Positions 2,822 through 55,754 of a stretch of 64,000 bases of DNA are shown in pieces. The stretch comes from Actinobacteria bacterium UBA7524 (GTDB taxonomy: Bacteria; Actinomycetota; Coriobacteriia; Anaerosomatales; UBA912), in assembly GCA_002478275.1 (NCBI GenBank), contig DLMY01000053.1:26347-90346 (forward strand), written 5' to 3'. Made by a program: the position numbers and the translations under genes. Every line of letters starts with the position of its first letter. The stretch's first letter is position 1. The notes below the pieces were generated by a model, which was given only the letters and a program-made list of their open reading frames with translations, made no database searches and was not told the origin of the DNA.

Positions 2822-2843
2822 CCGCGCGCACTGCGTGTGCGGG
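2822..2843. terminator. hairpin between convergent genes (candidate bidirectional terminator)
   Basis: CCGCGCGCAC-TGC-GTGTGCGGG imperfect stem of about 7 bp, followed by CTTTC. It lies between the stop codons of the TPR gene and the minus-strand STAS gene. Confidence 0.35.
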
Positions 2844-2854
2844 CTTTCGACGTG

Positions 2855-9823: not shown

Positions 9824-10759
9824 ATGCCGTTCCCGAAAGTGACAGTGGTCGGTGCGGGCCAGGTCGGTGCGACCGCCGCACATCTCATGCTGCTCAAGGA
9901 GCTCGCCGACGTGGTCTTGATGGACGTCGCCGAAGGGCTCCCGCAAGGTAAAGCACTCGACATGATGCACAGCCGTTCCGTCGAGCGGTTCGGACCGTCG
10001 GTCATCGGCACGAACGACTATGCCGATACGGCCGGCTCGGACATCATCGTCGTGACGGCCGGGCTGCCGCGCAAGCCCGGGATGACGCGCGATGACCTGC
10101 TGGCCGCGAACGCCTCGATCGTGCGTACGGTGGTCGAGCAGGCGATGCCCCACTCACCCGACGCCCTGCTCATGATGGTCACGAACCCCCTCGACGTCAT
10201 GGTCTACCTCGCCTACAAGACGAGCGGGCTTCCCGCACAGCGCGTGTTCGGGATGGGTGGCGTGCTTGACTCCGCCCGCTTCGCGTATGCCATCGCAGAG
10301 CGCATGGGCGTCCCCATCGGCGAGATCGAGGCGCTTGCTTGTGGTGCGCACGGTGATGCGATGGTCCCACTGCCGGCACACACGCTCGTGGGCGGACGCC
10401 CTCTCACCGAACTGCTCGACGCCGCAGACGTCGAAACCCTCGTGCAGCGCACGATCTTCGGCGGTGCCGAGGTCGTGACACTCCTCAAGAGCGGCAGCGC
10501 GTTCTACGCTCCCGCTGCCAGCATCGTGCGCATGGTCCAGGCGCTGCTGACCGACGAGCCGGCAGCCTTGCCCACATGCGCATACCTGGATGGCCACTAC
10601 GGCATCTCCGATGTCTACATGTCCGTTCCGGCGCTCCTCGGCAGGGAAGGTGTGCGGGACATCCCCGAGCTACCTCTGTCTGCCGAGGAGACCTCGGCGC
10701 TGCAGGCGTCCGCTGCGACTGTGGCAGAGACGCTGCGCGCGCTCGGGTTGCGGGAGTGA
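9824..10759 (+). CDS. mdh: malate dehydrogenase (LDH-like family)
   Basis: KVTVVGAGQVG Rossmann motif. GLPRKPGMTRDDL has the Arg that specifies oxaloacetate. ATG at 9824 lies within the longer ORF. Confidence 0.88.
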   Translation: MPFPKVTVVGAGQVGATAAHLMLLKELADVVLMDVAEGLPQGKALDMMHSRSVERFGPSVIGTNDYADTAGSDIIVVTAGLPRKPGMTRDDLLAANASIVRTVVEQAMPHSPDALLMMVTNPLDVMVYLAYKTSGLPAQRVFGMGGVLDSARFAYAIAERMGVPIGEIEALACGAHGDAMVPLPAHTLVGGRPLTELLDAADVETLVQRTIFGGAEVVTLLKSGSAFYAPAASIVRMVQALLTDEPAALPTCAYLDGHYGISDVYMSVPALLGREGVRDIPELPLSAEETSALQASAATVAETLRALGLRE

Positions 10760-10763
10760 TCGC

Positions 10764-11603
10764 GTGCTCGACACCGGCCGCATAGCCGAGGCGGTCCGCG
10801 GTGCGATCGTGCGCGCGGCGAGCGAACTTCGCCCGGACGTACACGCGGCGTTGCGGCAGGCCCACGCTACAGAGCGTTCGCCGCGTGGTCGCGGCGTGAT
10901 CGAGCAGCTGTTGCAGAACGCCGACATCGCCGCTGCAGATAGCGTGCCGTTGTGCCAGGACACGGGCACCGTCTGGGTGTGGGTCGAGATCGGAGCGCAG
11001 GAGTGCCTCCGTGAGCCGCTCCAGGCGCCGATCGACCAGGCGGTCTCGTCGGCGTACCGCGAGGCGGGGCTGCGCATGAGTGTGGCGCGAGATGCGCTGT
11101 TCGACCGCTCCAACACCGGCGACAACACCCCTGCGTTCCTGGATGTCACGATGCGCCCGGGTACGGGTGCGACGGTGCACGTGATGCTCAAGGGCGGGGG
11201 ATCGGACAACGCGTCGCAGGTCGTCATGGTTCCGCCAGGAGCAGGGGAACAGGGTGTGCGCGAGGTGGTCATGCGCGCGGTCGAACTCAACGCCCCCAAC
11301 GCGTGTCCGCCGTTGGTGGTGGGGGTGGGCGTGGGCTCGACCTTCGACAAGGTGGGCGTGCTGTCCAAGCGTGCGCTGCTGCGCCGTATCGGCACGTCGG
11401 CCGCAAGCCCGGCCCACGCGGCGTTCGAGCGTTCGCTGCTCGCCGACATCAACGCCGTCGGGATCGGACCAGGCGGGATGGGAGGCGACACGACGGCGCT
11501 CGCCGTTCATGTGGCAACGGCCCCCTGCCACATCGCGTCGTTGCCGGTCGCAGTGAACGTCGGTTGCTGTGCGATCAGGTCGGTGAGCGTGGATGTCGCC
11601 TGA
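10764..11603 (+). CDS. class I (Fe-S) fumarate hydratase / tartrate dehydratase, alpha (N-terminal domain) subunit
   Basis: PLCQDTGT motif, KGGGSDN, and a length of about 280 aa. GTG at 10764 is 2 nt after the mdh stop. Confidence 0.85.
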   Translation: MLDTGRIAEAVRGAIVRAASELRPDVHAALRQAHATERSPRGRGVIEQLLQNADIAAADSVPLCQDTGTVWVWVEIGAQECLREPLQAPIDQAVSSAYREAGLRMSVARDALFDRSNTGDNTPAFLDVTMRPGTGATVHVMLKGGGSDNASQVVMVPPGAGEQGVREVVMRAVELNAPNACPPLVVGVGVGSTFDKVGVLSKRALLRRIGTSAASPAHAAFERSLLADINAVGIGPGGMGGDTTALAVHVATAPCHIASLPVAVNVGCCAIRSVSVDVA

Positions 11604-13065
11604 TACGGTCGACGGCACCACCTTCCAGGCGCACGAGGCGGCCGAACTCACGCGGGGAGGGTATCGCCGCCTGATCGCGAACGGGCGCTTCAGGCGCTTG
11701 TGGCTCAGCCAGTTCGTGAGCGGCATCGGCGATTGGCTTGTGATCGGCTTTCTGATGCCGCTCGTCACGACGCTTTCGGGAGGATCGGCGTTCGCGGTCG
11801 CCGGTATCCTGATCGCCAAGATCATCCCGGCACTGGTGTTCTCCTCGGTCATAGGCGTGTTCGTCGACCGCTTCGACCGGCGTCGCACCATGATCGCCGC
11901 CGATCTCGTGCGAGCCGTGCTGACGCTCGGACTCTTCTTCACCAACAGCCTGATGGTCATCTATGCGGTCGTGTTGCTGATGGAGCTCGCGTCGCTGTTC
12001 TTCTTCCCGGCGAAGAACGCGCTGATCCCGTATCTTGTCGCCGAGGAGGACGTCACCGCCGCCAACGCGATGTCGTACACGACCCAGCAGGCGAGCATGC
12101 TCGTGGGTCTGGCAGCGTCCGGCGCGATCCTGGCCGGCTTCGAGGCGGTCGTGCGCATGGTGCTCGCGGCCGATCTGCCGATCGTGACCAGCCTGGCGGG
12201 GACCTTCGCCCCCGCGTTGCTCGGACCGCGCGCGGGGGTCTTCGTCAACACGCTCACGTTCCTCGTGTCGGCCGCGGCGATCTGGGGCATACGCATCGCC
12301 GCCCGTGCGTCGCATGAAGGATCGAGACTCGACATCTCCCTGGTGGGCAGCGACGTACTCGAGTCTTTGCGCTTCCTGCGCGACCATGGCGAGCTCAGAG
12401 GGTTCATGGTCACTATCGGCATGGCCATCCTCGGCGGAGGCACGATCATCCCCGTGGGGCTGATACACGTGCAGCAGAACCTGAGCGGGGGCGGTGTGCC
12501 GATCTTCGAGGAGATCGAATTCCTGCATCGTCTCAGCGCCGCGCCGCAGACCTTCATGCTCGTGTTGCTTGCGGTCGGGATGCTTGCCGGGGCGCTGGCG
12601 GTGCCGCGTCTCGCGCACGGGATGTCGCTGCAGCTGCTGTTCTTAGGGGGTGTCGCCGGCTTCGGGCTCGCGATGCTGGGCTTCGCGAGCGTGTCGAGCT
12701 ACCTGTTGGCGAGTCTCTTCGCCGCGGCCGCGGGGTTGTGCATCGCCACCGTCACTGTGGCGGGCAACACCTACGTCATCCACACCGTCGCCGATGAGAT
12801 CCGGGGCCGCGTGTTCACCGCACTCGAATCACTCATCCGCATCTCGTTACTGCTCTCGATGATCGTCATGGCGCCGTTGGGCGACTTCGCCGCCGGCATC
12901 TTGAAGCGCTTCGTCGAGTCGCGCGACATGGCGCCGGCCGACCTGGTGGTCACCGGGTCGCAGATCGCGCTGCAGCTCGCTGCGCTGGTGGTGCTTGCGG
13001 CAGCGGTGTACGCTTTCAGGACGCTGAATTGGCGCCGCTGCAAAGAGGAGGGCGTACATGTCTGA
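11593..13065 (+). CDS. MFS transporter (MFS_3/EntS-like exporter type)
   Basis: FRRLWLSQFVSGIGDWL N-terminal signature and about 12 TM segments. It overlaps both neighbours. Confidence 0.8.
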   Translation: MSPDTVDGTTFQAHEAAELTRGGYRRLIANGRFRRLWLSQFVSGIGDWLVIGFLMPLVTTLSGGSAFAVAGILIAKIIPALVFSSVIGVFVDRFDRRRTMIAADLVRAVLTLGLFFTNSLMVIYAVVLLMELASLFFFPAKNALIPYLVAEEDVTAANAMSYTTQQASMLVGLAASGAILAGFEAVVRMVLAADLPIVTSLAGTFAPALLGPRAGVFVNTLTFLVSAAAIWGIRIAARASHEGSRLDISLVGSDVLESLRFLRDHGELRGFMVTIGMAILGGGTIIPVGLIHVQQNLSGGGVPIFEEIEFLHRLSAAPQTFMLVLLAVGMLAGALAVPRLAHGMSLQLLFLGGVAGFGLAMLGFASVSSYLLASLFAAAAGLCIATVTVAGNTYVIHTVADEIRGRVFTALESLIRISLLLSMIVMAPLGDFAAGILKRFVESRDMAPADLVVTGSQIALQLAALVVLAAAVYAFRTLNWRRCKEEGVHV

Positions 13066-13651
13066 ACCGGTCATCCTCACGCTGCCGGTAGCACGGCAAG
13101 GCCTTCTGGCGCTCAAGGCCGGTGACGAAGTACTCCTCTCGGGCCCTGTCTATACCGCGCGCGACGCCACGCACGAGCGCCTGCTCGCGGAGACGAACGA
13201 GTCCGGCGGCAAGCTGCCTTACGGCCTCGAAGGCCAGACGCTCTTCTACGCGGGTCCCACTCCGCCTGCCGCCGGACGCCCGGCCGGTTCGGTCGGACCC
13301 ACGACCGCCAAGCGCATGGACCGCTACACCCCCGCGCTTCTCAAGGCCGGGATCGTGGCTACGATCGGCAAAGGTACACGTGCCGAGGAGATCGTTCGGG
13401 CTTGCCGCACCCACGGAGCCGTCTACTTCGCCGCTGTGGGCGGTTCGGCCGCGTTCCTGGCCACCAGGGTCGTGGCCGCCGAGCCGGTCGCTTATGAGGA
13501 CCTGGGGACCGAGGCCCTGGTGCGTCTGACGCTTCGCGACTTCCCGGTCGTGGTCGCGATCGACGCGACCGGCGATGCGTTTCTCGACCACGCAGCTTCG
13601 GACTGGCGCATGATGTCGGGCGGCGCCTCTTCGCGCGCAGGTGCGAGATGA
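13058..13651 (+). CDS. class I fumarate hydratase / tartrate dehydratase, beta (C-terminal domain) subunit
   Basis: LKAGDEVLLSGPVYTARDATH, GPTTAKRMD and IGKG motifs of the Fe-S hydro-lyase beta domain. Confidence 0.85.
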   Translation: MSEPVILTLPVARQGLLALKAGDEVLLSGPVYTARDATHERLLAETNESGGKLPYGLEGQTLFYAGPTPPAAGRPAGSVGPTTAKRMDRYTPALLKAGIVATIGKGTRAEEIVRACRTHGAVYFAAVGGSAAFLATRVVAAEPVAYEDLGTEALVRLTLRDFPVVVAIDATGDAFLDHAASDWRMMSGGASSRAGAR

Positions 13652-19455: not shown

Positions 19456-19917
19456 GTGCGGTCCTATGCGGCGCGCGTTCTAGGTGTCGTGCGCGCCCGA
19501 TCGCTTCGCTGCATCGTGAGCGGTCAGGTCGTCTGCTGTGCGGGTGGTTCGAACTGCGCGGATGTGGTCCGCGAGGCGGGTGTATGCGGGAGCGACACGT
19601 CCGAGTGCAGGACGGGGCTGGCTGACGTACTCGTCGTGACCGGCACCGTAACGGGCAAGACGGGCTCTTCGTTGCAGGAGTCATACGATGAGATGCGGGA
19701 ACCACGGTGGGTCGTGGCTGTGGGGGACTGCGCATGCACAGGCGGGCCGTTCCGTGAGTACCGGGGCGTGGTGCCGGGCACGAGGGAAGTACTCCCTGTG
19801 GACGAGAGTATCCTGGGATGTCCGCCCAGCGTCGAAAGGGTTCAGCAAGCCTTTGAGAGCCTTCGGGCGTCGGCGCGTGCGGATCACAGCTCGCGTCCGG
19901 ACGGAGCGACGCCTTGA
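19456..19917 (+). CDS. NuoB / NiFe-hydrogenase-small-subunit-like protein (Oxidored_q6 family), divergent
   Basis: VVCC... , ADVLVVTGTVT, EPRWVVAVGDCACTGGPF and PVDESILGCPP motifs. The start is uncertain: GTG 19456 is preferred and GTG 19516 is possible. Confidence 0.75.
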   Translation: MRSYAARVLGVVRARSLRCIVSGQVVCCAGGSNCADVVREAGVCGSDTSECRTGLADVLVVTGTVTGKTGSSLQESYDEMREPRWVVAVGDCACTGGPFREYRGVVPGTREVLPVDESILGCPPSVERVQQAFESLRASARADHSSRPDGATP

Positions 19918-21611
19918 GGCTCGATGTGAAGACCCTTGCCGAGGAGCTCGAGCAGGAAGGCGTCCCTCACGCCATCGAGGGAGATGCGCTTCAGGCGCAC
20001 CTGACGGTCGAGCCCGAGGACCTCGCCGGCGCCGCAGAGGTGCTGGCCCGGTCGGAGCACGTGGCGGCTCTCAGTGACTTCTTCGCCAGCGACACAGGCG
20101 ACGGCGTGGAGTTGACGTACCGGCTGCGGCTCTCCGATCTCGCGTCTGACGTCTTGCTTCGCTGTGCCATGTCGTACAGCACGCCTCTTGAGTCGCTGTG
20201 GACGGCTTTTCCCGCGGTGCTGATGTGCGAGCGCGAGGTGGCGGAGTTGTTCGGATTGAGACTGTCAGAGCATCCCAATCCGGTGCGGCTGCTCACCATG
20301 GCCGGGGCTGAGCCCATGATGCGGCACTCCGTCGCGCTGAGACATGAGGACGACTACGCAGCCGGCGAGGAGCCCTGGCAGACCGAGACTGACGCAGCGA
20401 CGCCCGGTGTCGCGTCACGGGCCGGGCGCCGTGGCGTCTCGCTTGAGGGTAAGCGGAGTGAGCGTCCCCACCGTGCGGCACCGATCGGGCTCACGCACGT
20501 CCCGGCCGGCGCCGGCACGGGACACTCCAGACGAGGACTCATCCGTCTTGCTCCGAGGTTCGATCCGGGTAGCGACGCTCCGGGGTTGACGCTTCGAGTC
20601 GTCGGCGAGAGCGTCCTGGCGGCCGAGGCCGACATGGGCTTCGCCCACCGGGGGATCGAGAGACTCTCCCAGGAGCGTCACCTTATGGAGCTGGGCGGGT
20701 TGCTGGCTCGTTTGGACCGTTCGGCTTCGGTCCACGCGCAACATGCTGCGGCGTTGGCGATCGAGCGCACCGTGCACGTCGAGGCCTCACCCAAAGGCGC
20801 ATGGCTGCGCTGTCTGTATGCCGAGCTGGCCAGGGTCGCGGGCCACCTCGGATGGCTTCAGGGATTCGTGAGCGACGCCGGTCTTCGTTCGCTGTCGGAG
20901 AGGGCGGCCAGGAACCGACAGGCGTTCCTCGGCATCGGTGAGCAGCTTGCCGGTGATGCCGGTGCCGGGTATGTGCTGCCAGGGGGAGTGTCCGCGGACA
21001 TGCCAGCCGCGCTGGACTCCAGTATCACGGAGCTTTGCGATGCGTTCGAACCGGACCTGGAGAGAATCGGGAGGAAGGTGCTGGGCAGCGGGCTGCTCAG
21101 GCGCAGACTGCACGGGCTGGCTGCGTTCGGCGCGCAGACTGCACGTGCGCTGGCTGTGACCGGTCCGAGCCTGAGAGCCTGCGGCATGGTCTGTGACGTA
21201 CGCCGGGACATGCCGTACGACGCATACGCCGAACTTGAGTTCGAGGTGCCGATCGGTAGCGTCGGTGATGCATGGGACCGGATGTCGGTGCGGATCGAGG
21301 AGATGCGGCAGTCGGTCGCTATGATTCGCCAGCTTGTTGCCGGACTACCCGAGGGCGCGTGCCGTACTCAAGCCGACAGCCCCTGGCGCGCGAGTCCGGG
21401 TGAGGCGTACGCGGCGGTCGAATCGGGCCGGGGAGAGCTCGGGGTCCACCTGGTCACCACGGGCGCTCGGAAGCCGCAGCGAGTCCGACTCAGGACACCC
21501 TCGCTGTTCGCCTGCCAACTCGCCGAGGAGATCCTGCCGGGGACGGAGCTCTCTGACGTGTTCCTCGTTCTCGGCAGTCTCGACATCGGCCTCGGGGAGG
21601 CTGAACGGTGA
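19914..21611 (+). CDS. fused NuoC-NuoD-like subunit (49-kDa / large-subunit homolog) without NiFe ligands
   Basis: The N-terminal 30-kDa-type domain and the C-terminal GFAHRGIERL, GPSLRACGM.CDVRRDMPYDAY, GDAWDR..VRIEEM and GSLDIGLGEAER match NuoD signatures. TTG start overlaps the NuoB-like stop (TTGA). Confidence 0.8.
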   Translation: MRLDVKTLAEELEQEGVPHAIEGDALQAHLTVEPEDLAGAAEVLARSEHVAALSDFFASDTGDGVELTYRLRLSDLASDVLLRCAMSYSTPLESLWTAFPAVLMCEREVAELFGLRLSEHPNPVRLLTMAGAEPMMRHSVALRHEDDYAAGEEPWQTETDAATPGVASRAGRRGVSLEGKRSERPHRAAPIGLTHVPAGAGTGHSRRGLIRLAPRFDPGSDAPGLTLRVVGESVLAAEADMGFAHRGIERLSQERHLMELGGLLARLDRSASVHAQHAAALAIERTVHVEASPKGAWLRCLYAELARVAGHLGWLQGFVSDAGLRSLSERAARNRQAFLGIGEQLAGDAGAGYVLPGGVSADMPAALDSSITELCDAFEPDLERIGRKVLGSGLLRRRLHGLAAFGAQTARALAVTGPSLRACGMVCDVRRDMPYDAYAELEFEVPIGSVGDAWDRMSVRIEEMRQSVAMIRQLVAGLPEGACRTQADSPWRASPGEAYAAVESGRGELGVHLVTTGARKPQRVRLRTPSLFACQLAEEILPGTELSDVFLVLGSLDIGLGEAER

Positions 21612-23114: not shown

Positions 23115-23431
23115 GTGTGGGACCGGGCGCCTTTCTCGCGTTGGCTGCGGTGCTTTTCGCAGCTGGCCTCTATGGAGCGGTGGCCAGACGAGGACCTCTT
23201 GCGGTGTTGATGTCTCTTCAGATGATGGCGATCGCGGTGAATCTGAACATCGTGACCTTCACGCGGTTTGTCACACCGGCAGAGCAGGCCGGGAAGCTGC
23301 TGCCCGTGTTCTCCCTGACTGTCGCGGTGTTGCATCTCGGCCTGGGCGTGGCGCTCGTCTCAGGAGCCAGTCGACGTGCACGTTCTGTTCAGCGCGGGTC
23401 TGCCGGGCCTGCCGGGGCGGGTGAGCGATGA
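23111..23431 (+). CDS. NuoK-like membrane subunit with both canonical membrane glutamates substituted
   Basis: Aligned by eye to E. coli NuoK (RRN.LFMLIGLEIMINA / AAAEASIGLAL). Here the equivalents read RRGPLAVLMSLQMMAIA / VAVLHLGLGVAL. ATGA overlap. Confidence 0.65.
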   Translation: MSVGPGAFLALAAVLFAAGLYGAVARRGPLAVLMSLQMMAIAVNLNIVTFTRFVTPAEQAGKLLPVFSLTVAVLHLGLGVALVSGASRRARSVQRGSAGPAGAGER

Positions 23432-24861
23432 TGGGCGGCTTCACACAGTTCGTGCCCGAGGCGGCATTGCTCGTGCCTGTTCCCGTGGCGCTACTGCTGG
23501 GGTCACGCTTGCGCGAACGCTGGATCGCATGGCTGGCGATGATATCGTGCGGCGTCGCCGGTGTCAGCGCATGGTACGCGCCCACCATGCTGGACCAGGC
23601 GTCGGCGGTCACGACGACGCTCGATACCACGGCAGGCGCGGCACGGCTGGCCATCTGCGTACTCGCCGCATTGTGGCTCGCGTGGGTCGCGGCGCGCGGG
23701 GCAGGCGCGGAGCGGTCCGGAGAAGCGGTCGGGCTGGCGCTGCTCAGTACCCTCGGGGGCCTGCTTCTTGCGAGCGCCACGGACCTGGTCGTGGCCTTCG
23801 TGGCGATGGAGTTGACGGTTCTGCCCGCCTATGTGCTCCTCGGCTATTCGCGTCACGACGTCCCGGTCCTAAAAGGCGTGCTCAAGCAGATGACCCGTTC
23901 CGCGTTGGCCTCGATGATCGCCCTGTACGGCATATCGTTTCTCTACGGGTTGACGGGGGCCACATCGTTCGAGGGTATCGCCACATCGTTGCCGGAGGCC
24001 GGCCCGCTGGGTGCGACGGGGGCGATTCTGGCGGTCGGCGGACTTCTGGCACGCTTGACGTTGCTGTACCGGTGCGCATCGGCCCGTTCCGGGGTGGCCG
24101 GGTCATCCGTGTTCACAGCGTTCGTGGCGAGCGTTCCGGCATTCTCCATGAGCGTGTTCCTCGCGCAGTTCTTGTCGCAGGCACTCACGGTACGCTCGCT
24201 CCAGACGATACTCGTCGCGGGCGCCGTGTTCTGCCTGGCCGTCGGGCTGTACGTGATCGTGCGGGAGCAAGAGCCAAGAGAGTTGCTCGCCGGAGCGGGT
24301 ACAGTGCACATAGGGTTTCTCATGGCTGGCCTGGCTGTGCTGGTAGCGGCCTCACCCGGATCGTCCATCGACGCGGTTCCGGTGCAGGTGTCACAGCTGG
24401 CGGTGGTCGCGCCTCGGGTCGACGCGCTCGTCATCTACGCGTTCACCTACTCCATCGCCGCACTCGCGCTTGGGCTGCTTCTGGCGGGAACAGAAGGAGA
24501 GGGACCGCGGTACGGGCGTCGGCTCGCCATGCGCGCGGCTGCGGTGCTGCTGGCATCGCTTGCAGGTGTGCCTCCCCTGGCGGGCTTTGCAGGCAGATGG
24601 CTGTTGCTCAGATCCGTCCACGAGGCTGGTTTCGGCTGGCTCGTGGCCACAGGGGTCGCAGTAAGCATCGTCTCCGCTTGGTACGTCGTGCGAGCCGCCC
24701 TATCGCGCGCTGGCTCGGCCGAAGCACAGGCGACCGCCGAGGAGGAGCGCATCACCGGTAGCGGTCCGGGCGGATGGTTGTCGGAAGACCGCCTCTCGCT
24801 CTCCCTTGCGGTCTCTGCCGTACTCGTGGGTGGTGCGGTCCTCTGGGTCTTCTGGTTCTGA
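23428..24861 (+). CDS. single antiporter-like subunit (NuoN/NuoM/MrpD family, Proton_antipo_M), degenerate
   Basis: About 14 TM segments. The TM5-type AMELTVLPAYVLLGY motif is present. The TM7/8 region reads GGLLARLTLLYRCASARSG instead of ..K....PFH.W.PD. ATGA overlap with the NuoK-like gene. Confidence 0.65.
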   Translation: MMGGFTQFVPEAALLVPVPVALLLGSRLRERWIAWLAMISCGVAGVSAWYAPTMLDQASAVTTTLDTTAGAARLAICVLAALWLAWVAARGAGAERSGEAVGLALLSTLGGLLLASATDLVVAFVAMELTVLPAYVLLGYSRHDVPVLKGVLKQMTRSALASMIALYGISFLYGLTGATSFEGIATSLPEAGPLGATGAILAVGGLLARLTLLYRCASARSGVAGSSVFTAFVASVPAFSMSVFLAQFLSQALTVRSLQTILVAGAVFCLAVGLYVIVREQEPRELLAGAGTVHIGFLMAGLAVLVAASPGSSIDAVPVQVSQLAVVAPRVDALVIYAFTYSIAALALGLLLAGTEGEGPRYGRRLAMRAAAVLLASLAGVPPLAGFAGRWLLLRSVHEAGFGWLVATGVAVSIVSAWYVVRAALSRAGSAEAQATAEEERITGSGPGGWLSEDRLSLSLAVSAVLVGGAVLWVFWF

Positions 24862-27245: not shown

Positions 27246-28955
27246 GTGATCGAGACCCTCAGTGCACTTGTCGTCGATGCCCTGCGGGCAGCGCGTGACT
27301 CCGAGGCGCTGGACCTGACGGAACTTCCACATCCGGACTTCGAGCGACCGCGTGATCCCTCCCATGGCGACTGGTCCACGAACGTGGCCATGCGTACGGC
27401 TAAGGCCGCCGGCATGCCGCCGCGCCAGCTGGCGGAGATAGTGGCGTCACGAATGGCCGGTCATCCGGACATCGAGGCGATCGAGGTCGCCGGCCCCGGC
27501 TTCCTGAACATCCGGCTCTCAGCCGCCGCTCTGCAGAGAGTGTTGCGTGAGGCGCGCGAGCAAGGTCCCCGTTTCGGCTCGAACGATGAGGGAAGCGGCC
27601 GCCGTGTTCAGGTGGAGTTCGTGTCAGCGAACCCCGTTGGCCCTATGCACGTGGGACATGGTCGATGGGCGGCTCTGGGTGACAGTATGGCCAGGGTGCT
27701 CGAACACGCTGGCTGGGTTGTACAGCGGGAGTTCTATGTCAACGACGCCGGGGTGCAGATGGACACGTTCGCCAAGTCCGTCGCTGCAAGGTACCTCGAG
27801 CTATGCGGACATGAAGTCGAGTTCGGAGAGGACTGGTATCAGGGCGCCTACATCACGGAGATCGCGCGGGAGATACTCGCATCCGAGGGCGAGTCCTGGG
27901 CCAACGCCGATCCGGCGAGCCGGGAGGCGCATTTCAGAGAGACCGCGTATCGCCAGGTACTCGATCACCTGAGCAGAGTCCTGCATGGGATGGGCGTCGA
28001 CTTCGACGTCTGGTTCTCGGAGCGCACGTTGCACCAGCGTGGTGGTGACGGGACGACCGCCGTCGAGAGGGCGATCCAGAGGTTGGACGAGGCCGGGCAC
28101 ATCTACGAGCTTGATGGCGCAGTGTGGTTCCGCTCCACCGAGTTCGGTGACGACAAGGACAGGGTCCTGAAGAAGGCCGACGGGGACTACACGTACTTCG
28201 CGGCGGACATCGCATATCACGCGGACAAGTTCGACAGGGGCTTCGATCGAGTCATAGACATCTGGGGAGCCGACCATCACGGTTATGTGAAACGAATGGA
28301 GGCCGCGGTCGCCGCCCTGGGCCATCCGGGCAAGCTGGACCTGGTGATCGGCCAGCTCGTGAACCTTTTTCGTGGCGGGGAAGTCGTACGCATGTCTAAG
28401 CGTACGGGAGAGATGGTCACGTTCGAAGACCTCCTGGAGGAAGTCGGGGTCGACGCCGCACGCTACTTCTTCCTGCGCCGGTCGACCGATCAGCCACTCG
28501 ACTTCGACATCGAGTTGGCGAAAGAGCAGAGCAGCGACAACCCTGTCTACTACGTGCAGTACGCCCACGCCCGTATATGCGCGGTACTGCGCAAGGGAGC
28601 AGGGGCGGAGACGGACGATACCGGGATCGACATCGAGGCGACCGCAGCCAGGATCGTTGACCCGGAAGCCCCCTTGCAGCTGTTGGTGGCACCGGCGGAA
28701 CTCGCACTCATGCGTAAACTCGCTGAGTTCGAAGAGGTTATCGAGATCGCCGCACGCCAGCTTGCACCATTCAAGTTGACGCGTTACGCAGAGGACCTGG
28801 CTGCGGCATTCCACCAGTTCTACACGGTCTGTCGAGTTGTCGATCCCGAGGAGCCCGAGCTTACCGCCGCACGGCTGTATGCGGTGGACGCGGCAAGGAT
28901 AGCGCTTGCCAACGTGCTCGGACTCATCGGGGTGAGCGCACCGGAACGCATGTGA
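27246..28955 (+). CDS. argS: arginine--tRNA ligase
   Basis: SANPVGPMHVGH (HIGH-type), the MSKRTG (KMSKS-type) motif, and the anticodon-binding DALR C-terminus. GTG at 27246 after AAGGAGA. Confidence 0.92.
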   Translation: MIETLSALVVDALRAARDSEALDLTELPHPDFERPRDPSHGDWSTNVAMRTAKAAGMPPRQLAEIVASRMAGHPDIEAIEVAGPGFLNIRLSAAALQRVLREAREQGPRFGSNDEGSGRRVQVEFVSANPVGPMHVGHGRWAALGDSMARVLEHAGWVVQREFYVNDAGVQMDTFAKSVAARYLELCGHEVEFGEDWYQGAYITEIAREILASEGESWANADPASREAHFRETAYRQVLDHLSRVLHGMGVDFDVWFSERTLHQRGGDGTTAVERAIQRLDEAGHIYELDGAVWFRSTEFGDDKDRVLKKADGDYTYFAADIAYHADKFDRGFDRVIDIWGADHHGYVKRMEAAVAALGHPGKLDLVIGQLVNLFRGGEVVRMSKRTGEMVTFEDLLEEVGVDAARYFFLRRSTDQPLDFDIELAKEQSSDNPVYYVQYAHARICAVLRKGAGAETDDTGIDIEATAARIVDPEAPLQLLVAPAELALMRKLAEFEEVIEIAARQLAPFKLTRYAEDLAAAFHQFYTVCRVVDPEEPELTAARLYAVDAARIALANVLGLIGVSAPERM

Positions 28956-28965
28956 CGAACTTGCC

Positions 28966-28992
28966 TGTGGACAATGTGGATACTGTGGAAAA
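28966..28992. repeat. three abutting 9-bp direct repeats TGTGGAcaa / TGTGGAtac / TGTGGAaaa (reverse complements of DnaA-box-like 9-mers)
   Basis: Read directly. TGTGGACAA is the reverse complement of TTGTCCACA (high-GC actinobacterial DnaA-box consensus). The other two each differ by 1 nt from TTATCCACA. Confidence 0.5.
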
Positions 28993-29054
28993 GCCCTGCT
29001 CAGATACCGTTTATCGCGCCAAATGCCCGTTCGACAAGTAGTGCGAAGAATCGC

Positions 29055-29082
29055 TTGCATTGTGCTCGCGATAGCCTAGTAT
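29055..29082 (+). promoter_or_regulatory. candidate sigma-70-type promoter (TTGCAT-16 nt-TAGTAT)
   Basis: The hexamers and their spacing were read directly. It lies in the AT-richer island upstream of the thioredoxin-like gene. Confidence 0.4.
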
Positions 29083-29273
29083 GTGGTGTGCGAGGTCGTT
29101 GGAGAATCCGGATGGGCCGCAGCCGCAAGGTGAAGGTTCGCTCGGAGGGCACAGCGGCCTCGCACCTTTGTGTCATCGTCGGATCGGCATCGTTCGCCGC
29201 AGATGACGGCGATTCAGGACTCACCCGGGTATCATCACGATAGGCCGCCGCGTCGTCCGTCGCAGGAGATGAC

Positions 29274-29717
29274 ATGAATGTTCGAGGCCTCAGAACCCGG
29301 GTGAGACGAGAGTCCTTGTTCGTGGCCCTCGTCATTCTGACGACAGCCTTGCTCGTCGGCTGCGCTCCATCGGGGTCAGGGTCCCGTGGGTCATCAGGCG
29401 CCGAACCAGGCGTCGCATGGCAGCCGCGGGAATCCGGCTTGCCGGCGTTCTACTACTTCGGTGATCCCGGTTGACCCGCGTGCGTCACGATGAAGCCTGT
29501 GGTCGACAGGCTGCGAGGCGAGTACGCGGGCACGGTCGAGTTCGTGGTCTTCGCCGAGCTGAGCAGCAGGCCGGACGCCAGCGATTTCGCGGTCAAGCAG
29601 CGAGTCTCGGTCATACCGACGATGGTCCTGGTTTCCGAGGACGGCACGGAACTCCAAAGGGTCATCGGCTCCTTGCCCGAGGCTGACTTGCGAGAACTGC
29701 TCGACGCCGTGCGATAG
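29274..29717 (+). CDS. thioredoxin-fold lipoprotein; candidate selenoprotein with in-frame TGA (29472-29474) giving a U-P-A-C redox motif
   Basis: ORFs 29274-29474 and 29490-29717 are in the same frame, separated only by a TGA. Lipobox LLVGC. Read-through gives FYYFGDPG-U-PACVTMKPVVDRL...VSVIPTMVL (thioredoxin CxxC position and cis-Pro). Confidence 0.6.
29475..29530 (+). promoter_or_regulatory. SECIS-like stem-loop immediately 3' of the in-frame TGA
   Basis: Outer helix CCCGCGT (29475-81) / ACGCGGG (29524-30). Apical helix AGCCTGT (29494-500) / ACAGGCT (29506-12) with loop GGTCG. Confidence 0.45.
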
Positions 29718-29871
29718 TCGCCGACGTCGCCCGGCGGCCACCGCTCCACACCTCCTGACCCGACGGGCCGTAGTCACGCCCGGGCGAGCGGATGGCATGT
29801 CGCGCTCGGGTACAATACGGTGATCGAGTGGGTCCCGGATGTGGACTCGAAGCCTTTCGGAGGGACGTAGG

Positions 29872-31158
29872 ATGCGCACGGTGAGAGTCGGTCTGATCGG
29901 TCTGGGAACCGTAGGTTCTGGCGTCGTGGATATCCTCGACAGGCACCGGGAGGATTTCGCACGGCGAGCAGGAGTGGACGTCGAGTTGGTCAGGTGCGCC
30001 GACCGCGATCCCGCGCGCGCCGAAGCACTCGGGCTGCCCGCCTCCGCATTCACCACTGACGCCACCGAGGTGATCGCAGACCCTGAGATCGATGTCGTCA
30101 TCGAACTCATCGGGGGTACCGGTGTCGCGCGCGAATTCGTCCTTGCGGCACTCGCAGCCGGGAAATCCGTGGTCACAGCGAACAAGGCGCTCATGGCCGC
30201 CCATGGCGAGGAGGTCATGGACGCTGCTGCCGCAAGCGGGGTGGATATCCTGTTCGAGGCCGCGGTCGGTGGGGGCATCCCCATCATCGGTCCGATGAAG
30301 CATTGCCTGGTCTCCAACGAGGTCGAGAGCGTCATGGGCATCGTCAACGGGACGACCAACTACATGCTCACCCGCATGGCCGAAGACGGCCTCGACTACG
30401 CTGACGCGCTGGCCGAGGCGCAGGCCAAAGGGTTCGCGGAGGCCGACCCCACCGCAGACGTCGACGGACTGGACGCCGCGGCGAAGATCGCGATCCTGGC
30501 CAGCATCGCTTTCAACTCCCGCGTGACGCTCGAGCAGGTGCCGGCGGAAGGCATCCGGTCTCTGAGTCCGGCCGACATCGAGTACGCGCGCGAAATGGGC
30601 TACGTCATCAAACTCCTTGCGATCGCCCGTCGTATCGACGGGGCGGTCGATATCCGCGTTCACCCGACCATGCTGCGTGCCTCTCACCCTCTCGCTGCGG
30701 TCAACGGCGTCTACAACGCGATCTACGTGGTGGGCGACTCGGTCGGGGAGACGATGTTCTTCGGTGAAGGGGCCGGCTCGCTGCCGGCGGCCAGTGCGGT
30801 CGTCGGCGACCTCATCGAGGTGGCGCGCCACATCGAACAGGGATGCCTGAACTTCGTCGGTTGCACGTGCACCGAGCATCTCGAGGTGCGCGACATCGCC
30901 GATCTCACCACGAGCTACTACGTGCGCATGCACGTCGCCGATGAACCCGGCGTTCTGGCCGCCGTCGCCGGCGTGTTCGGCTCTCATGGCGTTTCGATCG
31001 GCTCGGTCATCCAGAAGTCCGCCGACGAGACAGGCGCGGAGATCGTCTACGTCACCCATGAGGCATCCGAGCGGGCGGTGCGTGCGGCACTCGCCGAGGT
31101 CGAGCGACTCGCGGTCACGCGGGCGATGGGCACCGTCATCCGGGTCGAGGACCTGTAG
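29872..31158 (+). CDS. hom: homoserine dehydrogenase (with C-terminal ACT domain)
   Basis: VGLIGLGTVGSG Rossmann motif, the ANKAL and GGGIPII motifs, and a C-terminal ACT-like segment. Confidence 0.9.
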   Translation: MRTVRVGLIGLGTVGSGVVDILDRHREDFARRAGVDVELVRCADRDPARAEALGLPASAFTTDATEVIADPEIDVVIELIGGTGVAREFVLAALAAGKSVVTANKALMAAHGEEVMDAAAASGVDILFEAAVGGGIPIIGPMKHCLVSNEVESVMGIVNGTTNYMLTRMAEDGLDYADALAEAQAKGFAEADPTADVDGLDAAAKIAILASIAFNSRVTLEQVPAEGIRSLSPADIEYAREMGYVIKLLAIARRIDGAVDIRVHPTMLRASHPLAAVNGVYNAIYVVGDSVGETMFFGEGAGSLPAASAVVGDLIEVARHIEQGCLNFVGCTCTEHLEVRDIADLTTSYYVRMHVADEPGVLAAVAGVFGSHGVSIGSVIQKSADETGAEIVYVTHEASERAVRAALAEVERLAVTRAMGTVIRVEDL

Positions 31159-49676: not shown

Positions 49677-50450
49677 GTGGACAAACTCGGCTACGAGGTA
49701 GAGAAGCTGCTTCATCACCTGGAGCCGGTGGGCCTGGACGGACACCATCTCGAGGGGACGTTCGCTCTCTCTAACTACACGTTTTACCTGGTGATCGCCC
49801 TGTTCCTGACGCTGTTGTTCTTCGTCTTCGCTGCTCGCAAGGCATCGCTGGTGCCGAAGGGTTTCGGCAACCTCGCCGAGACGGGCGTCGAGTTCGTGCG
49901 CAACAGCATCGTCTCGGACGTCATGGGGCCGGAGGGCCTGAAGTACCTGCCCTTCATGGTCACCGTCTTCTTCTTCGTGCTCTTCAACAACCTGCTCGGC
50001 CTGGTGCCCGGTGGTCTTCCCGGCACCGGCACAGTCGGCACGACCTTCACGTGGGGCCTGTTCGTCTTCCTCACCTACAACTTCATCGGGTTCCAGAAGA
50101 ACGGCATCGCGTACCTCAAGAGCTTCATCCCTTCGGGCACGCCGTGGTGGCTCCAGCCGCTCATCCTGTTGCTCGAGGTCGTCAGTCACCTGCTGCGTCC
50201 GTTCACGTTGGGAGTGCGTCTCTACGCCAACATGTACGCCGGCCACATCATCCTTGGCGTGTTCGTCATCTTCATCAAGATCGTGTTCGACCAGATCACC
50301 GCCGGTGGGCTTGTGGTCGCGTCACTGTCGTTCGTGATGCTCATCCTGATGTACGCTTTCGAGCTGTTCGTCGCGTTCATCCAGGCCTACGTATTCACGA
50401 TTCTGACTGCCGTCTACATCAGCGGTGCGCTGCACGCAGCTGATCACTAG
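49677..50450 (+). CDS. atpB: F0F1 ATP synthase subunit a
   Basis: LRPFTLGVRLYANMYAGH contains the essential Arg motif. About 6 TM segments. Confidence 0.92.
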   Translation: MDKLGYEVEKLLHHLEPVGLDGHHLEGTFALSNYTFYLVIALFLTLLFFVFAARKASLVPKGFGNLAETGVEFVRNSIVSDVMGPEGLKYLPFMVTVFFFVLFNNLLGLVPGGLPGTGTVGTTFTWGLFVFLTYNFIGFQKNGIAYLKSFIPSGTPWWLQPLILLLEVVSHLLRPFTLGVRLYANMYAGHIILGVFVIFIKIVFDQITAGGLVVASLSFVMLILMYAFELFVAFIQAYVFTILTAVYISGALHAADH

Positions 50451-50528
50451 GATCAAACGCCGCGACGCGGCGTTGAGTTGATACACCAGTTCGCACGTAA
50501 GGAAGTACCGTCTCTTAGAGGAGGAACA

Positions 50529-50753
50529 GTGGAAGGCTCTCTGAATGTTCTGGCTGCTGCTATCGCGTTCGGTGTCGGTGCCATCAGCCCCGCGCTTGCG
50601 GTAGGTAACGTCGCCGGTAAGGCGATCGAGGGCATGGCCCGCCAGCCCGAGATGGCAGGCAAGATCCAGACGACCATGTTCATCGGTATGGCGCTCGCCG
50701 AGGCCATCGCTCTGCTCGGTTTCGTTCTCGCCTTCGTTCTGCAGGCTGCCTAA
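50529..50753 (+). CDS. atpE: F0F1 ATP synthase subunit c
   Basis: GTG at 50529 after AGAGGAGGAA. 74-aa hairpin with ARQPE loop and the ion-binding Glu in MALAEAIAL. Confidence 0.9.
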   Translation: MEGSLNVLAAAIAFGVGAISPALAVGNVAGKAIEGMARQPEMAGKIQTTMFIGMALAEAIALLGFVLAFVLQAA

Positions 50754-50795
50754 TCGCTCTCGAAGACAGCCGTTGCGGCAGAAGGTAGGTGAGTC

Positions 50796-51296
50796 ATGGA
50801 AGCGATCACTCCTCTATTCCCAGAGGTACTGATATCGGGCGCTGCGTTCATCGTGCTGTTCGTGTTCATCTGGAAGTTCGCGCTTCCGCCGGTCACGAAG
50901 ATGCTCGATGAGCGGGCCGAGAAGATCCGCGAGTCGATCGAGAAGGCCGAGGAGACCCGTATCGAGGCCGAGCGTCTGCTGGAGGACTACAAACAGCAGA
51001 TGGCCGAGGCCCGTAACGAGGCGACAGAGGTCATCGAGCAGGGCCGCAGGGTCGCGGACTCGATGAAGAACGACATCGTCGCCAAGGCGAACGAAGAAGC
51101 GGCAGCCATCGTAGCGAAGGCCCGCGAGGCGATCGTCTCCGAGAAGCAGGCCGCGATGGCCGAGCTTCAGGCGTCGGTGGCCGACATCTCCGTGTCCGTC
51201 GCCGGTAAGCTGATCGGCGAGAAGCTTTCCGCCGATGATCACGCGAAACTGATCGAGCGGTATGTGGCGGAGGTGGGCAGCTTCAATGACAACTAG
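50796..51296 (+). CDS. atpF: F0F1 ATP synthase subunit b
   Basis: N-terminal TM helix plus a long charged coiled coil. Operon position. Confidence 0.88.
   Translation: MEAITPLFPEVLISGAAFIVLFVFIWKFALPPVTKMLDERAEKIRESIEKAEETRIEAERLLEDYKQQMAEARNEATEVIEQGRRVADSMKNDIVAKANEEAAAIVAKAREAIVSEKQAAMAELQASVADISVSVAGKLIGEKLSADDHAKLIERYVAEVGSFNDN

Positions 51297-51844: not shown

Positions 51845-51852
<8 letters not shown>
51286..51852 (+). CDS. atpH: F0F1 ATP synthase subunit delta
   Basis: [13 protein letters not shown]-type N-terminus and GG.R...G..V.DGS at the C-terminus. Confidence 0.88.
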
Positions 51853-53410
<1,558 letters not shown>

Positions 53411-53419
53411 GGGCGGCAC

Positions 53420-55737
<2,318 letters not shown>

Positions 55738-55754
55738 CAAAGGAGCGCACCAGT

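What the first reader, a model, noticed from the sequence alone, without database searches (positions are those of the whole stretch)
29274..29717. Candidate selenocysteine-containing thioredoxin-fold lipoprotein (U-P-A-C) with a SECIS-like hairpin
ORF 29274-29474 encodes a lipoprotein signal with lipobox LLVGC and ends ...AFYYFGDPG-TGA. ORF 29490-29717 is in the same reading frame. Reading through the single TGA gives FYYFGDPG-U-PAC-VTMKPVVDRLRGEYAGTVEFVVF...VSVIPTMVLVSEDG..., a complete thioredoxin fold. The TGA falls exactly at the first Cys of the CxxC motif, and the cis-Pro (IPT) lies at the right distance. Directly after the TGA the mRNA can form an outer helix (29475-81 with 29524-30) and a 7-bp apical helix (29494-500 / 29506-12) with loop GGUCG, 27-31 nt after the UGA. 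This resembles bacterial SECIS geometry and the G/U-containing apical loop of E. coli fdhF. Annotated naively, this locus gives two meaningless fragments. Sec/Cys thioredoxin-like proteins are known in anaerobes, so the idea is plausible but needs the Sec machinery.
Basis: partly seen in the sequence, partly recalled or inferred. Interest (0 to 1): 0.7.

Follow-up and report, generated by a model that had tools for sequence, protein, structure and literature searches.

The report
Selenocysteine thioredoxin-like lipoprotein gene
One gene (29274-29717) encodes a membrane-anchored, thioredoxin-like redox protein whose active-site residue is almost certainly selenocysteine, read from an in-frame UGA with the help of a hairpin just downstream. 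Gene callers split it in two, but it is an ordinary kind of bacterial selenoprotein.

Summary
The selenoprotein interpretation is strongly supported by comparative evidence.

- **Fold:** Reading through TGA 29472-29474 joins a lipoprotein signal to a complete thioredoxin fold. It has a U-P-A-C motif and a cis-Pro.
- **Not an assembly error:** Two other assemblies carry identical DNA.
- **The TGA is conserved:** It sits at this exact codon in 41 of 43 loci from named genomes (Coriobacteriia and Chloroflexota MAGs). The other two have TGC (Cys). It is also present in L003, in five more divergent homologs, and in 32 metagenome contigs.
- **Hairpin:** The apical hairpin 29494-29512 (loop GGUCG, 26 nt after the UGA, -11.6 kcal/mol) meets the published bacterial SECIS model. 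Three of its pairs show compensatory changes. Its six codons show no synonymous variation in 37 homologs that share only 34-59% protein identity with the window's protein.
- **Supporting context:** One distant homolog lies between a Sec peroxiredoxin gene and a Sec formate-dehydrogenase-like gene.
- **Gap:** No selA, selB, selD or tRNA-Sec is in the window or in the flanks held, so the Sec machinery of this genome is untested.
- **Classification:** No curated NCBIfam model claims the family. It is a new member of the well-known class of Trx-fold UxxC selenoproteins.

The parts
29264..29268 (+). Shine-Dalgarno-like AGGAG, 5 nt before the ATG at 29274
   Evidence: Read directly. No comparable motif precedes the internal ATG at 29490.
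29274..29717 (+). One coding sequence of 147 codons, including one UGA (Sec), with stop TAG at 29715-29717. It encodes a selenocysteine-containing thioredoxin-like lipoprotein.
   Evidence: Homologs have the same layout.
29274..29363 (+). Lipoprotein signal peptide: a positively charged n-region (RGLRTRVRRE), a hydrophobic core, and the lipobox L-V-G-C with Cys30 at 29361-29363.
   Evidence: Sequence. Homologs carry either a lipobox (L003, L022, L047, L049, L050; a possible SSCG in L051) or a membrane anchor at the same place. No dedicated signal-peptide predictor was run.
29472..29474 (+). In-frame UGA, read as selenocysteine (residue 67). It occupies the first position of the U-P-A-C redox motif (29472-29483).
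   Evidence: TGA at this codon in L003, in 41 of 43 genome loci (TGC in L043 and L045), in 5 of 5 divergent homologs, and in 32 metagenome contigs.
29494..29512 (+). SECIS apical hairpin: a 7-bp helix (29494-29500 / 29506-29512) and loop GGUCG (29501-29505). It lies inside the codons for K-P-V-V-D-R-L.
   Evidence: -11.6 kcal/mol, z = -4.8; 96.8% of cells paired, 3 pairs with compensatory change, G31 and U32 invariant; no synonymous variation across 37 sequences.
29475..29530 (+). Lower helix of the extended stem (29475-29483 with 29522-29530), present in this window
   Evidence: It is only partly conserved in relatives: central pairs form in about 30-50% of sequences.
29616..29618 (+). Codon for Pro115, the cis-proline of the thioredoxin fold (V-I-P-T)
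   Evidence: It aligns with the conserved IPT/VPA of solved thioredoxins. Pro is invariant in the 33-sequence alignment.

Best explanation
**What it is.** 29274-29717 is a single gene for a 146-residue selenoprotein.

**How the UGA is read (inferred).** During translation, the hairpin 29494-29512 acts as a bacterial SECIS element. Its GGUCG loop lies 26 nt past the UGA. The element recruits SelB·GTP·Sec-tRNA(Sec), so UGA 29472-29474 is read as selenocysteine instead of terminating. This step is inferred from comparative evidence and was not observed.

**Where the protein goes (inferred from sequence).** The N-terminal signal with lipobox LVGC directs export and lipidation at Cys30. This tethers a thioredoxin-fold domain to the outer face of the cytoplasmic membrane.

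**What it does (inferred by analogy).** Its U67-P-A-C70 centre, with Sec at the position of the attacking Cys, cycles between selenolate/thiol and selenenylsulfide. It would reduce or isomerise disulfides, or related oxidised sulfur species, in extracytoplasmic substrates. This is inferred by analogy with thioredoxin, ResA, TlpA and the DsbD gamma domain. The substrate and the electron donor are unknown.

**RNA constraint on the protein.** Because the SECIS lies inside the coding region, it fixes the codons for the peptide K-P-V-V-D-R-L.
For: **1. The fold spans the stop.** Pfam Thioredoxin_2 covers residues 53-143 and exceeds its gathering score. Solved thioredoxins align at E down to 5e-9.

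**2. The TGA is real.** The sequence is identical in two other assemblies.

**3. An exhaustive protein search shows systematic truncation.** It returned dozens of roughly 75-aa gene calls that all begin at the Met five codons past the TGA, a sign that gene callers cut a whole family at the same place.

**4. The UGA codon in relatives.** It is TGA in 41 of 43 loci from named Coriobacteriia, Actinomycetota and Chloroflexota MAGs, and TGC (Cys) in two. It is TGA in L003 (59% identical) and in L047-L051, which were found without the peptide pattern. It is TGA in the 32 family hits of the metagenome scan. Sequence is conserved on both sides of the codon.

**5. Cys homologs exist.** Full-length relatives carry CGPC, CMPC or CPGC at this site (P0018, P0024, P0044, P0052).

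**6. The published bSECIS model is met.**
- Loop of 5 nt (model: 3-9).
- Stem of 7 bp (model: 4-16).
- G in the first loop position, followed by G and U.
- 26 nt spacing from the UGA (model: 16-37).
- MFE -11.6 kcal/mol (model: at most -7.5).

**7. Covariation.** Three of the seven pairs show compensatory changes and 96.8% of cells are paired, against 18-43% when the partner is slid by 1-3 columns.

**8. Frozen synonymous sites.** Codons AAG CCT GTG GTC GAC AGG are identical in 37 sequences whose proteins are 34-59% identical to the window's. Conserved Pro, Leu and Gly codons just outside the helix each use four different codons.

**9. TGA is an ordinary stop here.** 37 of the 69 ORFs in the window that passed the GC3 filter end in TGA, so the code is not reassigned.

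**10. A homolog sits among textbook selenoprotein genes.** In L050 the homologous TGA gene lies between a peroxiredoxin gene with FTPV-U and a formate-dehydrogenase-like gene with HQARI-U-H.
Against: - The Sec trait of this particular organism is therefore unverified.
- No Rfam family matches the hairpin.
- The invariant loop G-U is also the first two bases of a conserved Val codon, so RNA and protein constraints cannot be fully separated there.
- The genome census used the peptide MKPVVDRL, which the SECIS itself encodes. That census is therefore biased towards Sec forms.
- Function, substrate and redox partner are inferred only. No conserved neighbour such as ccdA/dsbD was seen.
Confidence: 0.9

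Rival explanations
1. The UGA is recoded, but not as selenocysteine. For example, Cys could be delivered by a tRNA-Sec-like tRNA(Cys) through SelB and the same hairpin, or a near-cognate tRNA (Trp or Cys) could read through the weak UGA-C context.
For: Nothing in the data identifies the inserted residue. No Sec-synthesis gene was seen. Natural UGA-to-Cys recoding by SelB-dependent tRNAs has been described; I recall this from the literature and did not check it here. Most family members have C after the UGA. I recall, also unchecked, that this is a leaky termination context.
Against: A conserved hairpin that fits the SelB-type SECIS model, and a Sec/Cys pattern across two phyla, are what true selenoproteins show. 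In L050 the neighbours are classic Sec enzymes. If Cys were wanted, a TGC codon would be simpler, as in L043 and L045.
Confidence: 0.05
2. It is a pseudogene: a thioredoxin-like lipoprotein gene inactivated by a nonsense mutation at the active-site Cys codon.
For: A single in-frame stop splits the fold. The Sec machinery was not seen in the window.
Against: The same TGA at the same codon occurs in more than 75 independent homologs from two phyla, with both halves under purifying selection. GC3 of 0.85 is kept downstream. The downstream hairpin is conserved, with covariation.
Confidence: 0.02
3. There are two separate genes: a 66-residue lipopeptide (29274-29474) and a 75-residue protein starting at ATG 29490. 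This is how public gene callers annotate the locus.
For: Both ORFs are called separately in every public assembly examined.
Against: The thioredoxin domain match runs across the stop. The 75-residue piece lacks strand beta-1 and the redox motif. No Shine-Dalgarno precedes 29490. In some homologs the internal Met is absent, yet the frame and the TGA are kept: L047 has U-PAC-VKT-LPVV and L051 has ...KRLAPIV.
Confidence: 0.02

Closest known systems
Thiol:disulfide interchange protein selenoprotein family (Pfam PF13098 Thioredoxin_2, motif UxxC, representative WP_011366075.1), listed as 'predicted with high confidence' in the 2026 inventory of prokaryotic selenoproteins (PMC13188914)
   Same: The best Pfam family is the same (PF13098). 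The UxxC motif with Sec at the first position is the same. Both are Trx-fold thiol oxidoreductase types.
   Different: The family described here is found in Coriobacteriia/Actinomycetota and Chloroflexota MAGs. It is always exported or membrane-anchored, by a lipobox, a TM segment, or a rhodanese-plus-TM fusion.
Sec-containing thioredoxin (Trx, PF00085, UxxC; shown experimentally for the representative WP_010956703.1, ref. 84 of PMC13188914)
   Same: Thioredoxin fold, U at the attacking position of the CxxC motif, cis-Pro, and a conserved Met after the motif.
   Different: It scores 32 bits against the 96.8-bit cut-off of the thioredoxin equivalog TIGR01068, so it is not a canonical TrxA. The motif is UPAC/UPSC rather than a CGPC type. 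It is an extracytoplasmic lipoprotein rather than a soluble protein without a signal peptide.
Bacterial SECIS consensus (bSECISearch model; E. coli fdhF/fdnG type)
   Same: A hairpin immediately 3' of the UGA inside the coding region, a small apical loop starting with G-G-U, 26 nt spacing, and a stable upper stem. All model criteria are met. From memory, the fdhF loop also contains GGUC.
   Different: The sequence of the element is almost invariant across a whole class: 23 nt are identical in 37 loci. The review states that bSECIS elements of different genes usually bear no resemblance to one another. No bulged U was identified. SelB binding is untested.
Extracytoplasmic Trx-like reductases of Gram-positive bacteria and the DsbD C-terminal domain (ResA, StoA, TlpA, DsbD-gamma; selenoprotein TsoB)
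   Same: A membrane-tethered Trx domain outside the cytoplasm. There are weak local NCBIfam matches to the Trx-like C-terminal part of the DsbD and TsoB models, and to parts of the StoA and ResA models.
   Different: All scores are far below the cut-offs, for example TsoB at 39.8 against 805. No CcdA/DsbD or cytochrome c maturation gene was seen next to it.

Membership tests
Bacterial selenoprotein gene (SelB/bSECIS-dependent UGA recoding) | In-frame UGA that aligns with Cys in homologs (a Sec/Cys pair) | tested here: met
   TGC at the same codon in L043 and L045. CGPC, CMPC or CPGC in full-length homologs P0018, P0024, P0044 and P0052.
Bacterial selenoprotein gene (SelB/bSECIS-dependent UGA recoding) | Protein conservation on both sides of the UGA, and the UGA conserved in orthologs of different species | tested here: met
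   41 of 43 genome loci, 5 of 5 divergent homologs, L003, and 32 metagenome contigs.
Bacterial selenoprotein gene (SelB/bSECIS-dependent UGA recoding) | Downstream hairpin that fits the bSECIS model: loop 3-9 nt with G in its first two positions, stem 4-16 bp, 16-37 nt from the UGA, MFE at most -7.5 kcal/mol | tested here: met
   Loop GGUCG (5 nt), 7-bp stem, 26 nt spacing, -11.6 kcal/mol. Criteria quoted from PMC13188914. Covariation and frozen synonymous sites.
Bacterial selenoprotein gene (SelB/bSECIS-dependent UGA recoding) | tRNA-Sec, SelA, SelB and SelD encoded in the same genome | not testable with these tools
The rest of the genome is not available, and the species is not in the genome collection.
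Bacterial selenoprotein gene (SelB/bSECIS-dependent UGA recoding) | Selenium actually incorporated at the UGA position | not testable with these tools
   This needs 75Se labelling or mass spectrometry.
Thioredoxin-fold thiol:disulfide oxidoreductase (Pfam PF13098 / PF00085) | Domain score above Pfam's gathering threshold | tested here: met
   With Cys in place of the stop: Thioredoxin_2 36.2 bits (cut-off 27) and Thioredoxin 26.6 bits (cut-off 23.5).
Thioredoxin-fold thiol:disulfide oxidoreductase (Pfam PF13098 / PF00085) | CxxC-type motif after strand beta-1, and a cis-Pro loop at the right distance | tested here: met
   U67-P-A-C70 and I114-P115-T116 align with WCGPC and I-P-T of solved thioredoxins.
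Thioredoxin-fold thiol:disulfide oxidoreductase (Pfam PF13098 / PF00085) | Three-dimensional thioredoxin fold | not tested
   The search on the remote machine turned the read-through sequence away as not an exact window translation. Structure prediction states the same restriction and was not tried.
Canonical thioredoxin TrxA (NCBIfam TIGR01068 equivalog) | Score at or above the curated cut-off of 96.8 bits | tested here: not met
   32 bits. Relatives score 36-58 bits.
Curated Trx-like selenoprotein families of NCBIfam (SaoT NF040730, TsoB NF045694, HUIPC NF047660, VPGUxxT NF041383, PDO_seleno_TRX TIGR02187) | Score at or above the model's curated cut-off | tested here: not met
   The window protein has no hit at E up to 0.1. 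Relatives give only local hits far below the cut-offs: TsoB 39.8 against 805, SaoT 19-22 against 65, TIGR02187 16-24 against 185.
'Thiol:disulfide interchange protein' selenoprotein family (PF13098, UxxC) | Pfam family PF13098 and a UxxC motif | tested here: met
   and the table in PMC13188914.
'Thiol:disulfide interchange protein' selenoprotein family (PF13098, UxxC) | Orthology with the representative WP_011366075.1 | not testable with these tools
   The sequence cannot be fetched by accession, and no supplement is held for the database paper.
Bacterial lipoprotein | Positively charged n-region, hydrophobic core, and lipobox [LVI][ASTVI][GAS]C | tested here: met
   MNVRGLRTRVRRE-SLFVALVILTTAL-LVGC, read by eye only. 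Lipoboxes at the same place in L003, L022, L047, L049 and L050, with a possible SSCG in L051.

The most novel reading that the evidence does not exclude
This may be a distinct, so far uncatalogued clade of exported Sec-thioredoxins, found in anaerobic Coriobacteriia-like Actinomycetota and in Anaerolineae. The domain occurs as a lipoprotein, as a TM-anchored protein, or fused to an extracytoplasmic rhodanese domain. Its SECIS is so constrained that it dictates an invariant peptide (M)KPVVDRL. If so, the 20-mer AAGCCUGUGGUCGACAGGCU would be a lineage-wide SelB recognition sequence and a near-specific DNA tag for the family. The rhodanese fusions would point to extracytoplasmic sulfane-sulfur or selenium chemistry rather than plain disulfide reduction.
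Probability: 0.3. Interest if true: 0.55.

Novelty: new member of a known kind. Interest (0 to 1): 0.45.

Why it matters
**Annotation.** Every public gene call I looked at splits this gene into two fragments: an N-terminal piece without a recognised function, or one called only 'Rhodanese', plus a truncated thioredoxin of about 75 aa. The same error recurs in more than 80 loci from Coriobacteriia and Chloroflexota MAGs and from metagenomes. A simple rule would repair them: a TGA 21 nt upstream of AAGCCTGTGGTCGACAGGCT, or of its covarying variants.

**Biology.**
- It implies that this organism uses selenocysteine.
- It adds an exported, membrane-tethered Sec oxidoreductase to a Gram-positive lineage.
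- It gives a clear natural example of an RNA element fixing synonymous codons, and thereby a peptide motif, over long evolutionary distances.

**Limits.** It does not change what is known about how Sec is decoded. Trx-fold UxxC proteins are the commonest kind of predicted bacterial selenoprotein.

Tried and rejected
- **Word-index protein search with the read-through protein.** No hit.
- **Genome scan with the single protein.** No relative was found, so the species is not in the genome collection.
- **33-sequence alignment for locus finding.** It was too diverse and was replaced by a 13-sequence alignment. That search relied on the single peptide MKPVVDRL, which biases the census towards Sec forms.
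- **Rfam, at gathering and permissive thresholds.** Nothing relevant.
- **Promoter and terminator scan of 28900-29900.** Nothing found.
- **Scan of the window for other TGA-interrupted genes.** It returned four sites. The two on the + strand (36961, 62345) are ordinary stops followed by the next gene in the same frame. The two on the - strand were not followed up. The scan's GC3 filter also missed this gene itself.
- **Synteny of argS/hom with the fetched loci.** Only L047 shares hom. The gene's context is not conserved.
- **Clustering of neighbouring ORFs.** Dominated by spurious high-GC ORFs and therefore uninformative. It was replaced by the Pfam-annotated neighbourhoods, which show no conserved redox partner.
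- **Search for Sec machinery.** I used a SelD probe written from memory, plus SelA/SelB/SelD motif scans, over about 836 kb. No hit.
- **Check of the fused NuoCD (19914-21611) as a Sec-type group 4 hydrogenase subunit.** It has no Cys or Sec motifs, so this idea was rejected.
- **Literature search for Sec use in Coriobacteriia.** Nothing specific.

Full report
**1. The observation**

- An AGGAG at 29264-29268 lies 5 nt before ATG 29274.
- The ORF encodes MNVRGLRTRVRRESLFVALVILTTALLVGC..., with a positively charged n-region, a hydrophobic core and the lipobox LVGC. A Gly/Ser-rich linker follows, then ...LPAFYYFGDPG. The ORF stops at TGA 29472-29474.
- The frame continues as PACVTMKPVVDRLRGEYAGTVEFVVF...VSVIPTMVLVSEDG...LLDAVR, ending at TAG 29715-29717.
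- With Cys in place of the stop, the 147-residue product passes Pfam's gathering scores for Thioredoxin_2 (36.2 against 27; residues 53-143, across the stop) and for Thioredoxin (26.6 against 23.5).
- It aligns to solved thioredoxins at E 5e-9 to 4e-7. U-P-A-C falls on WCGPC and I-P-T falls on the cis-Pro loop.
- Third-position GC is 0.85 after the TGA. It is 0.68 before it, in the signal peptide and linker.

The hairpin is also real.
- 29472-29535 folds at -33.4 kcal/mol (z = -3.5).
- The apical hairpin 29493-29513 alone folds at -11.6 kcal/mol (z = -4.8; 0 of 200 shuffles as stable).
- The 63 nt before the TGA are unremarkable (z = +0.4).

**2. Not an error, not a pseudogene**

The same 561 nt, TGA included, are identical in contigs assembled from two other sequencing runs.

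An exhaustive HMMER search with the 80 residues after the TGA found 119 relatives. The closest short ones are mostly gene calls of about 75 aa that begin at the Met five codons after the TGA. That pattern is what systematic truncation at a recoded stop looks like.

Reading the DNA confirmed this.
- L003 (59% identical) has a lipoprotein signal, then ...RFYYFGSST-TGA-PACVEMKPVVDRL.
- A scan of one genome per species returned 43 loci, nearly all MAGs of Coriobacteriia or Actinomycetota (including Anaerosomatales) and of Chloroflexota/Anaerolineae. Of these, 41 have TGA at exactly this codon and two (L043, L045) have TGC.
- That scan relied on the peptide MKPVVDRL, which the hairpin itself encodes, so it favours Sec forms. 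I therefore also looked up five more divergent truncated calls (MEPVVDGL, MVPVVNGI, MEPIVDEV, MAPIVKEL, KTLPVVNGV). All five have TGA at the same site. Four have a clear lipobox (L047-L050) and L051 has a possible one.
- A metagenome scan for the 20-mer AAGCCTGTGGTCGACAGGCT gave 33 contigs. Of these, 32 belong to this family and have TGA 21 nt upstream. One (L083) is an unrelated gene that happens to encode PKPVVDRL.
- Full-length Cys homologs exist with CGPC, CMPC or CPGC.
- TGA is an ordinary stop in this window: 37 of the 69 ORFs that passed the GC3 filter end in it.

**3. The RNA element**

The 2026 review of prokaryotic selenoproteomes gives the bSECIS model as follows:
- an apical loop of 3-9 nt with a G in its first two positions, mostly G followed by G or U;
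- an upper stem of 4-16 bp;
- 16-37 nt between the UGA and the loop;
- MFE at most -7.5 kcal/mol.

Here the loop is GGUCG (5 nt), the stem is 7 bp, the spacing is 26 nt and the MFE is -11.6 kcal/mol. All criteria are met.

I aligned 50 sequences (63 nt from the UGA codon, gap-free).
- The helix, columns 23-29 with 35-41, is paired in 96.8% of cells, against 18-43% when the 3' partner is slid by 1-3 columns.
- Three pairs show compensatory changes: G-C to A-U, U-A or C-G; U-A to C-G or G-C; G-C to A-U.
- No shuffle out of 500 reached the observed covariation score.
- Loop positions G31 and U32 are invariant.

The strongest signal is at synonymous sites. In the 37 Coriobacteriia-type sequences (34-59% protein identity to the window's protein), codons 8-13 are AAG CCT GTG GTC GAC AGG without a single synonymous change. 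This includes codons I would expect to be rare in a 65% GC genome (CCT, AGG); codon usage was not measured. In contrast, the conserved Pro at codon 2, the Leu at codon 14 (the first codon whose third base is unpaired) and the Gly at codon 20 each use four codons. Selection therefore acts on the RNA, and the peptide K-P-V-V-D-R-L is in large part its imprint.

The lower helix present in the window (29475-29483 with 29522-29530) is only partly kept in relatives. Rfam has no matching model.

**4. Context and family anatomy**

The window is a housekeeping stretch of a 65% GC chromosome. Its genes include:
- tatA/tatC, hypA/hypB, topA and mdh;
- class I fumarase subunits, tmk and holB;
- a nuo-like operon, htrA, rlmH and argS;
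- this gene, then hom and thrB;
- rho, rpmE, thyX, prfA, prmC, glyA and upp;
- further ORFs at 49677-56174 that look like an ATP synthase operon by length and order (not scanned), then an archaeal-type PEP carboxylase and murA/aroA-like genes.

The gene order, and the nearest homologs of this protein, point to an anaerobic member of the Actinomycetota close to Coriobacteriia. The species itself is not in the genome collection.

The gene stands alone between argS and hom. Only L047 shares that neighbourhood. In other genomes the gene sits next to unrelated genes, sometimes a nuo operon, and no CcdA/DsbD-type partner is adjacent.

Every family member has an export or anchoring device in front of the Trx domain:
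- a lipobox (window, L003, L022, L047, L049, L050; possibly L051);
- an N-terminal cytoplasmic domain plus a TM segment (L004, L005, L006, L018);
- a TM segment plus a rhodanese domain (most Coriobacteriia loci);
- two TM segments (Chloroflexota).

The domain therefore works outside the cytoplasm.

**5. Sec machinery**

This is what a small sample of each genome would be expected to give, so it tests nothing.

Indirect support comes from L050. There the homologous TGA gene lies between a peroxiredoxin gene reading ...DFTPV-U-IAEL and a Tat-signal molybdopterin oxidoreductase reading ...EHQARI-U-HSPTV. These are the hallmark Sec motifs of Prx and formate dehydrogenase.

**6. Mechanism**

- *Shown:* one reading frame, the fold across the stop, the conserved UGA, the Sec/Cys pairs, and a conserved and covarying hairpin at the right distance.
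- *Inferred:* SelB·GTP·Sec-tRNA(Sec) binds the GGUCG hairpin and inserts Sec at residue 67. The protein is exported, lipidated at Cys30 and tethered to the outer face of the membrane. U67 and C70 form a selenenylsulfide redox couple that reduces or exchanges disulfides in extracytoplasmic targets, with Sec at the position of the attacking Cys.
- *Unknown:* the substrates and the electron donor. The rhodanese fusions in relatives hint at sulfane-sulfur chemistry.
- Termination at the UGA would give a 66-residue lipopeptide as a by-product when selenium is scarce. This too is inference.

**7. Comparison with known families and novelty**

Trx-fold UxxC proteins are the commonest type of predicted bacterial selenoprotein. 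[quoted passage not shown]

The window protein, and four architectural variants of the family, reach no curated NCBIfam cut-off.
- The thioredoxin equivalog scores 32-58 bits against a cut-off of 96.8.
- There are only local matches to the Trx-like C-terminal part of the TsoB and DsbD models.
- SaoT and TIGR02187 are far below threshold.

So it is not a canonical TrxA, and it is not a member of any curated selenoprotein model. It fits the broad PF13098 UxxC class. Orthology with that class's representative could not be tested. I rate it a new member of a known kind.

**8. Verdict**

I put confidence that this is a real selenoprotein gene at about 0.9. The remaining doubt is the untested Sec machinery and the identity of the inserted residue. 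Interest is moderate. The value lies in an annotation fix that applies to many MAGs and in an unusually frozen, codon-embedded SECIS. It does not reveal a new kind of system.

Noticed in passing
L050:770-3101: Three consecutive TGA-interrupted genes lie on one contig (GCA_040961535.1). They are a peroxiredoxin (...DFTPV-U-IAEL, split by callers into 770-1024 and 1073-1363), the Trx-like homolog (TGA at 1483), and a Tat-signal molybdopterin oxidoreductase (...HQARI-U-HSPTV, split into 1746-2318 and 2367-3101). This is a small selenoprotein gene cluster.
   Followed up: partly
L089:209-1027 (protein P0029): A close full-length relative has Ser (TCA, one base away from TGA) at the Sec position, giving S-Q-S-C. 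Its hairpin carries a central C·A mismatch. It looks like a lineage that replaced Sec by Ser rather than Cys. Relatives P0020 and P0031 have lost both redox residues. This rests on a single 1.8-kb contig, so a sequencing variant is not excluded.
   Followed up: partly
L007-L038 (for example L009:9494-10240): In most Coriobacteriia loci the Sec-Trx domain is fused behind a TM segment and a rhodanese domain. The rhodanese active-site loop reads YC(A/T/Q)(T/S)G(A/S/E)RS, mostly YCxTGARS. Gene callers annotate the front half as a separate 159-aa 'Rhodanese' protein. A Cys version of this fusion exists (P0044, CPGC).
   Followed up: partly
L007-L038, 0.5-8 kb downstream of the gene: A tRNA-Ala(UGC) gene follows the rhodanese-type Sec-Trx gene in most Coriobacteriia loci. 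This is conserved synteny, even though the protein-coding neighbours seen in the annotated examples are unrelated.
   Followed up: no
window:10590-13651: The class I fumarate hydratase alpha-type gene (10590-11603, Pfam Fumerase) and beta-type gene (13058-13651, Fumerase_C) are separated by a 490-aa MFS transporter gene (11593-13065). The transporter overlaps both by a few bases.
   Followed up: no
window:19136-24861: This is a nuo-like operon with a fused NuoC-NuoD (19914-21611; no hydrogenase Cys motifs). Only one antiporter-like subunit was seen (23428-24861), and no NuoE/F/G was found in the window. Subunits A, B and H are assigned from ORF size and position only.
   Followed up: partly
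window:34455-36963: Two long, partly overlapping + strand ORFs (525 aa and 359 aa) have good third-position GC but no Pfam match at E up to 1e-5.
   Followed up: no
L083:3795-3814: This is the only metagenome hit to the 20-nt hairpin sequence that lies outside the family. It is an unrelated ORF encoding ...AAVPKPVVDRLAADL, with TTT where the TGA would be. It shows that the 20-mer is a nearly specific, but not perfectly specific, tag for the family.
   Followed up: yes
window:4799-5861: hypA and hypB (hydrogenase nickel-insertion genes) lie next to tatA/tatC, but no hydrogenase structural gene is in the window.
   Followed up: no
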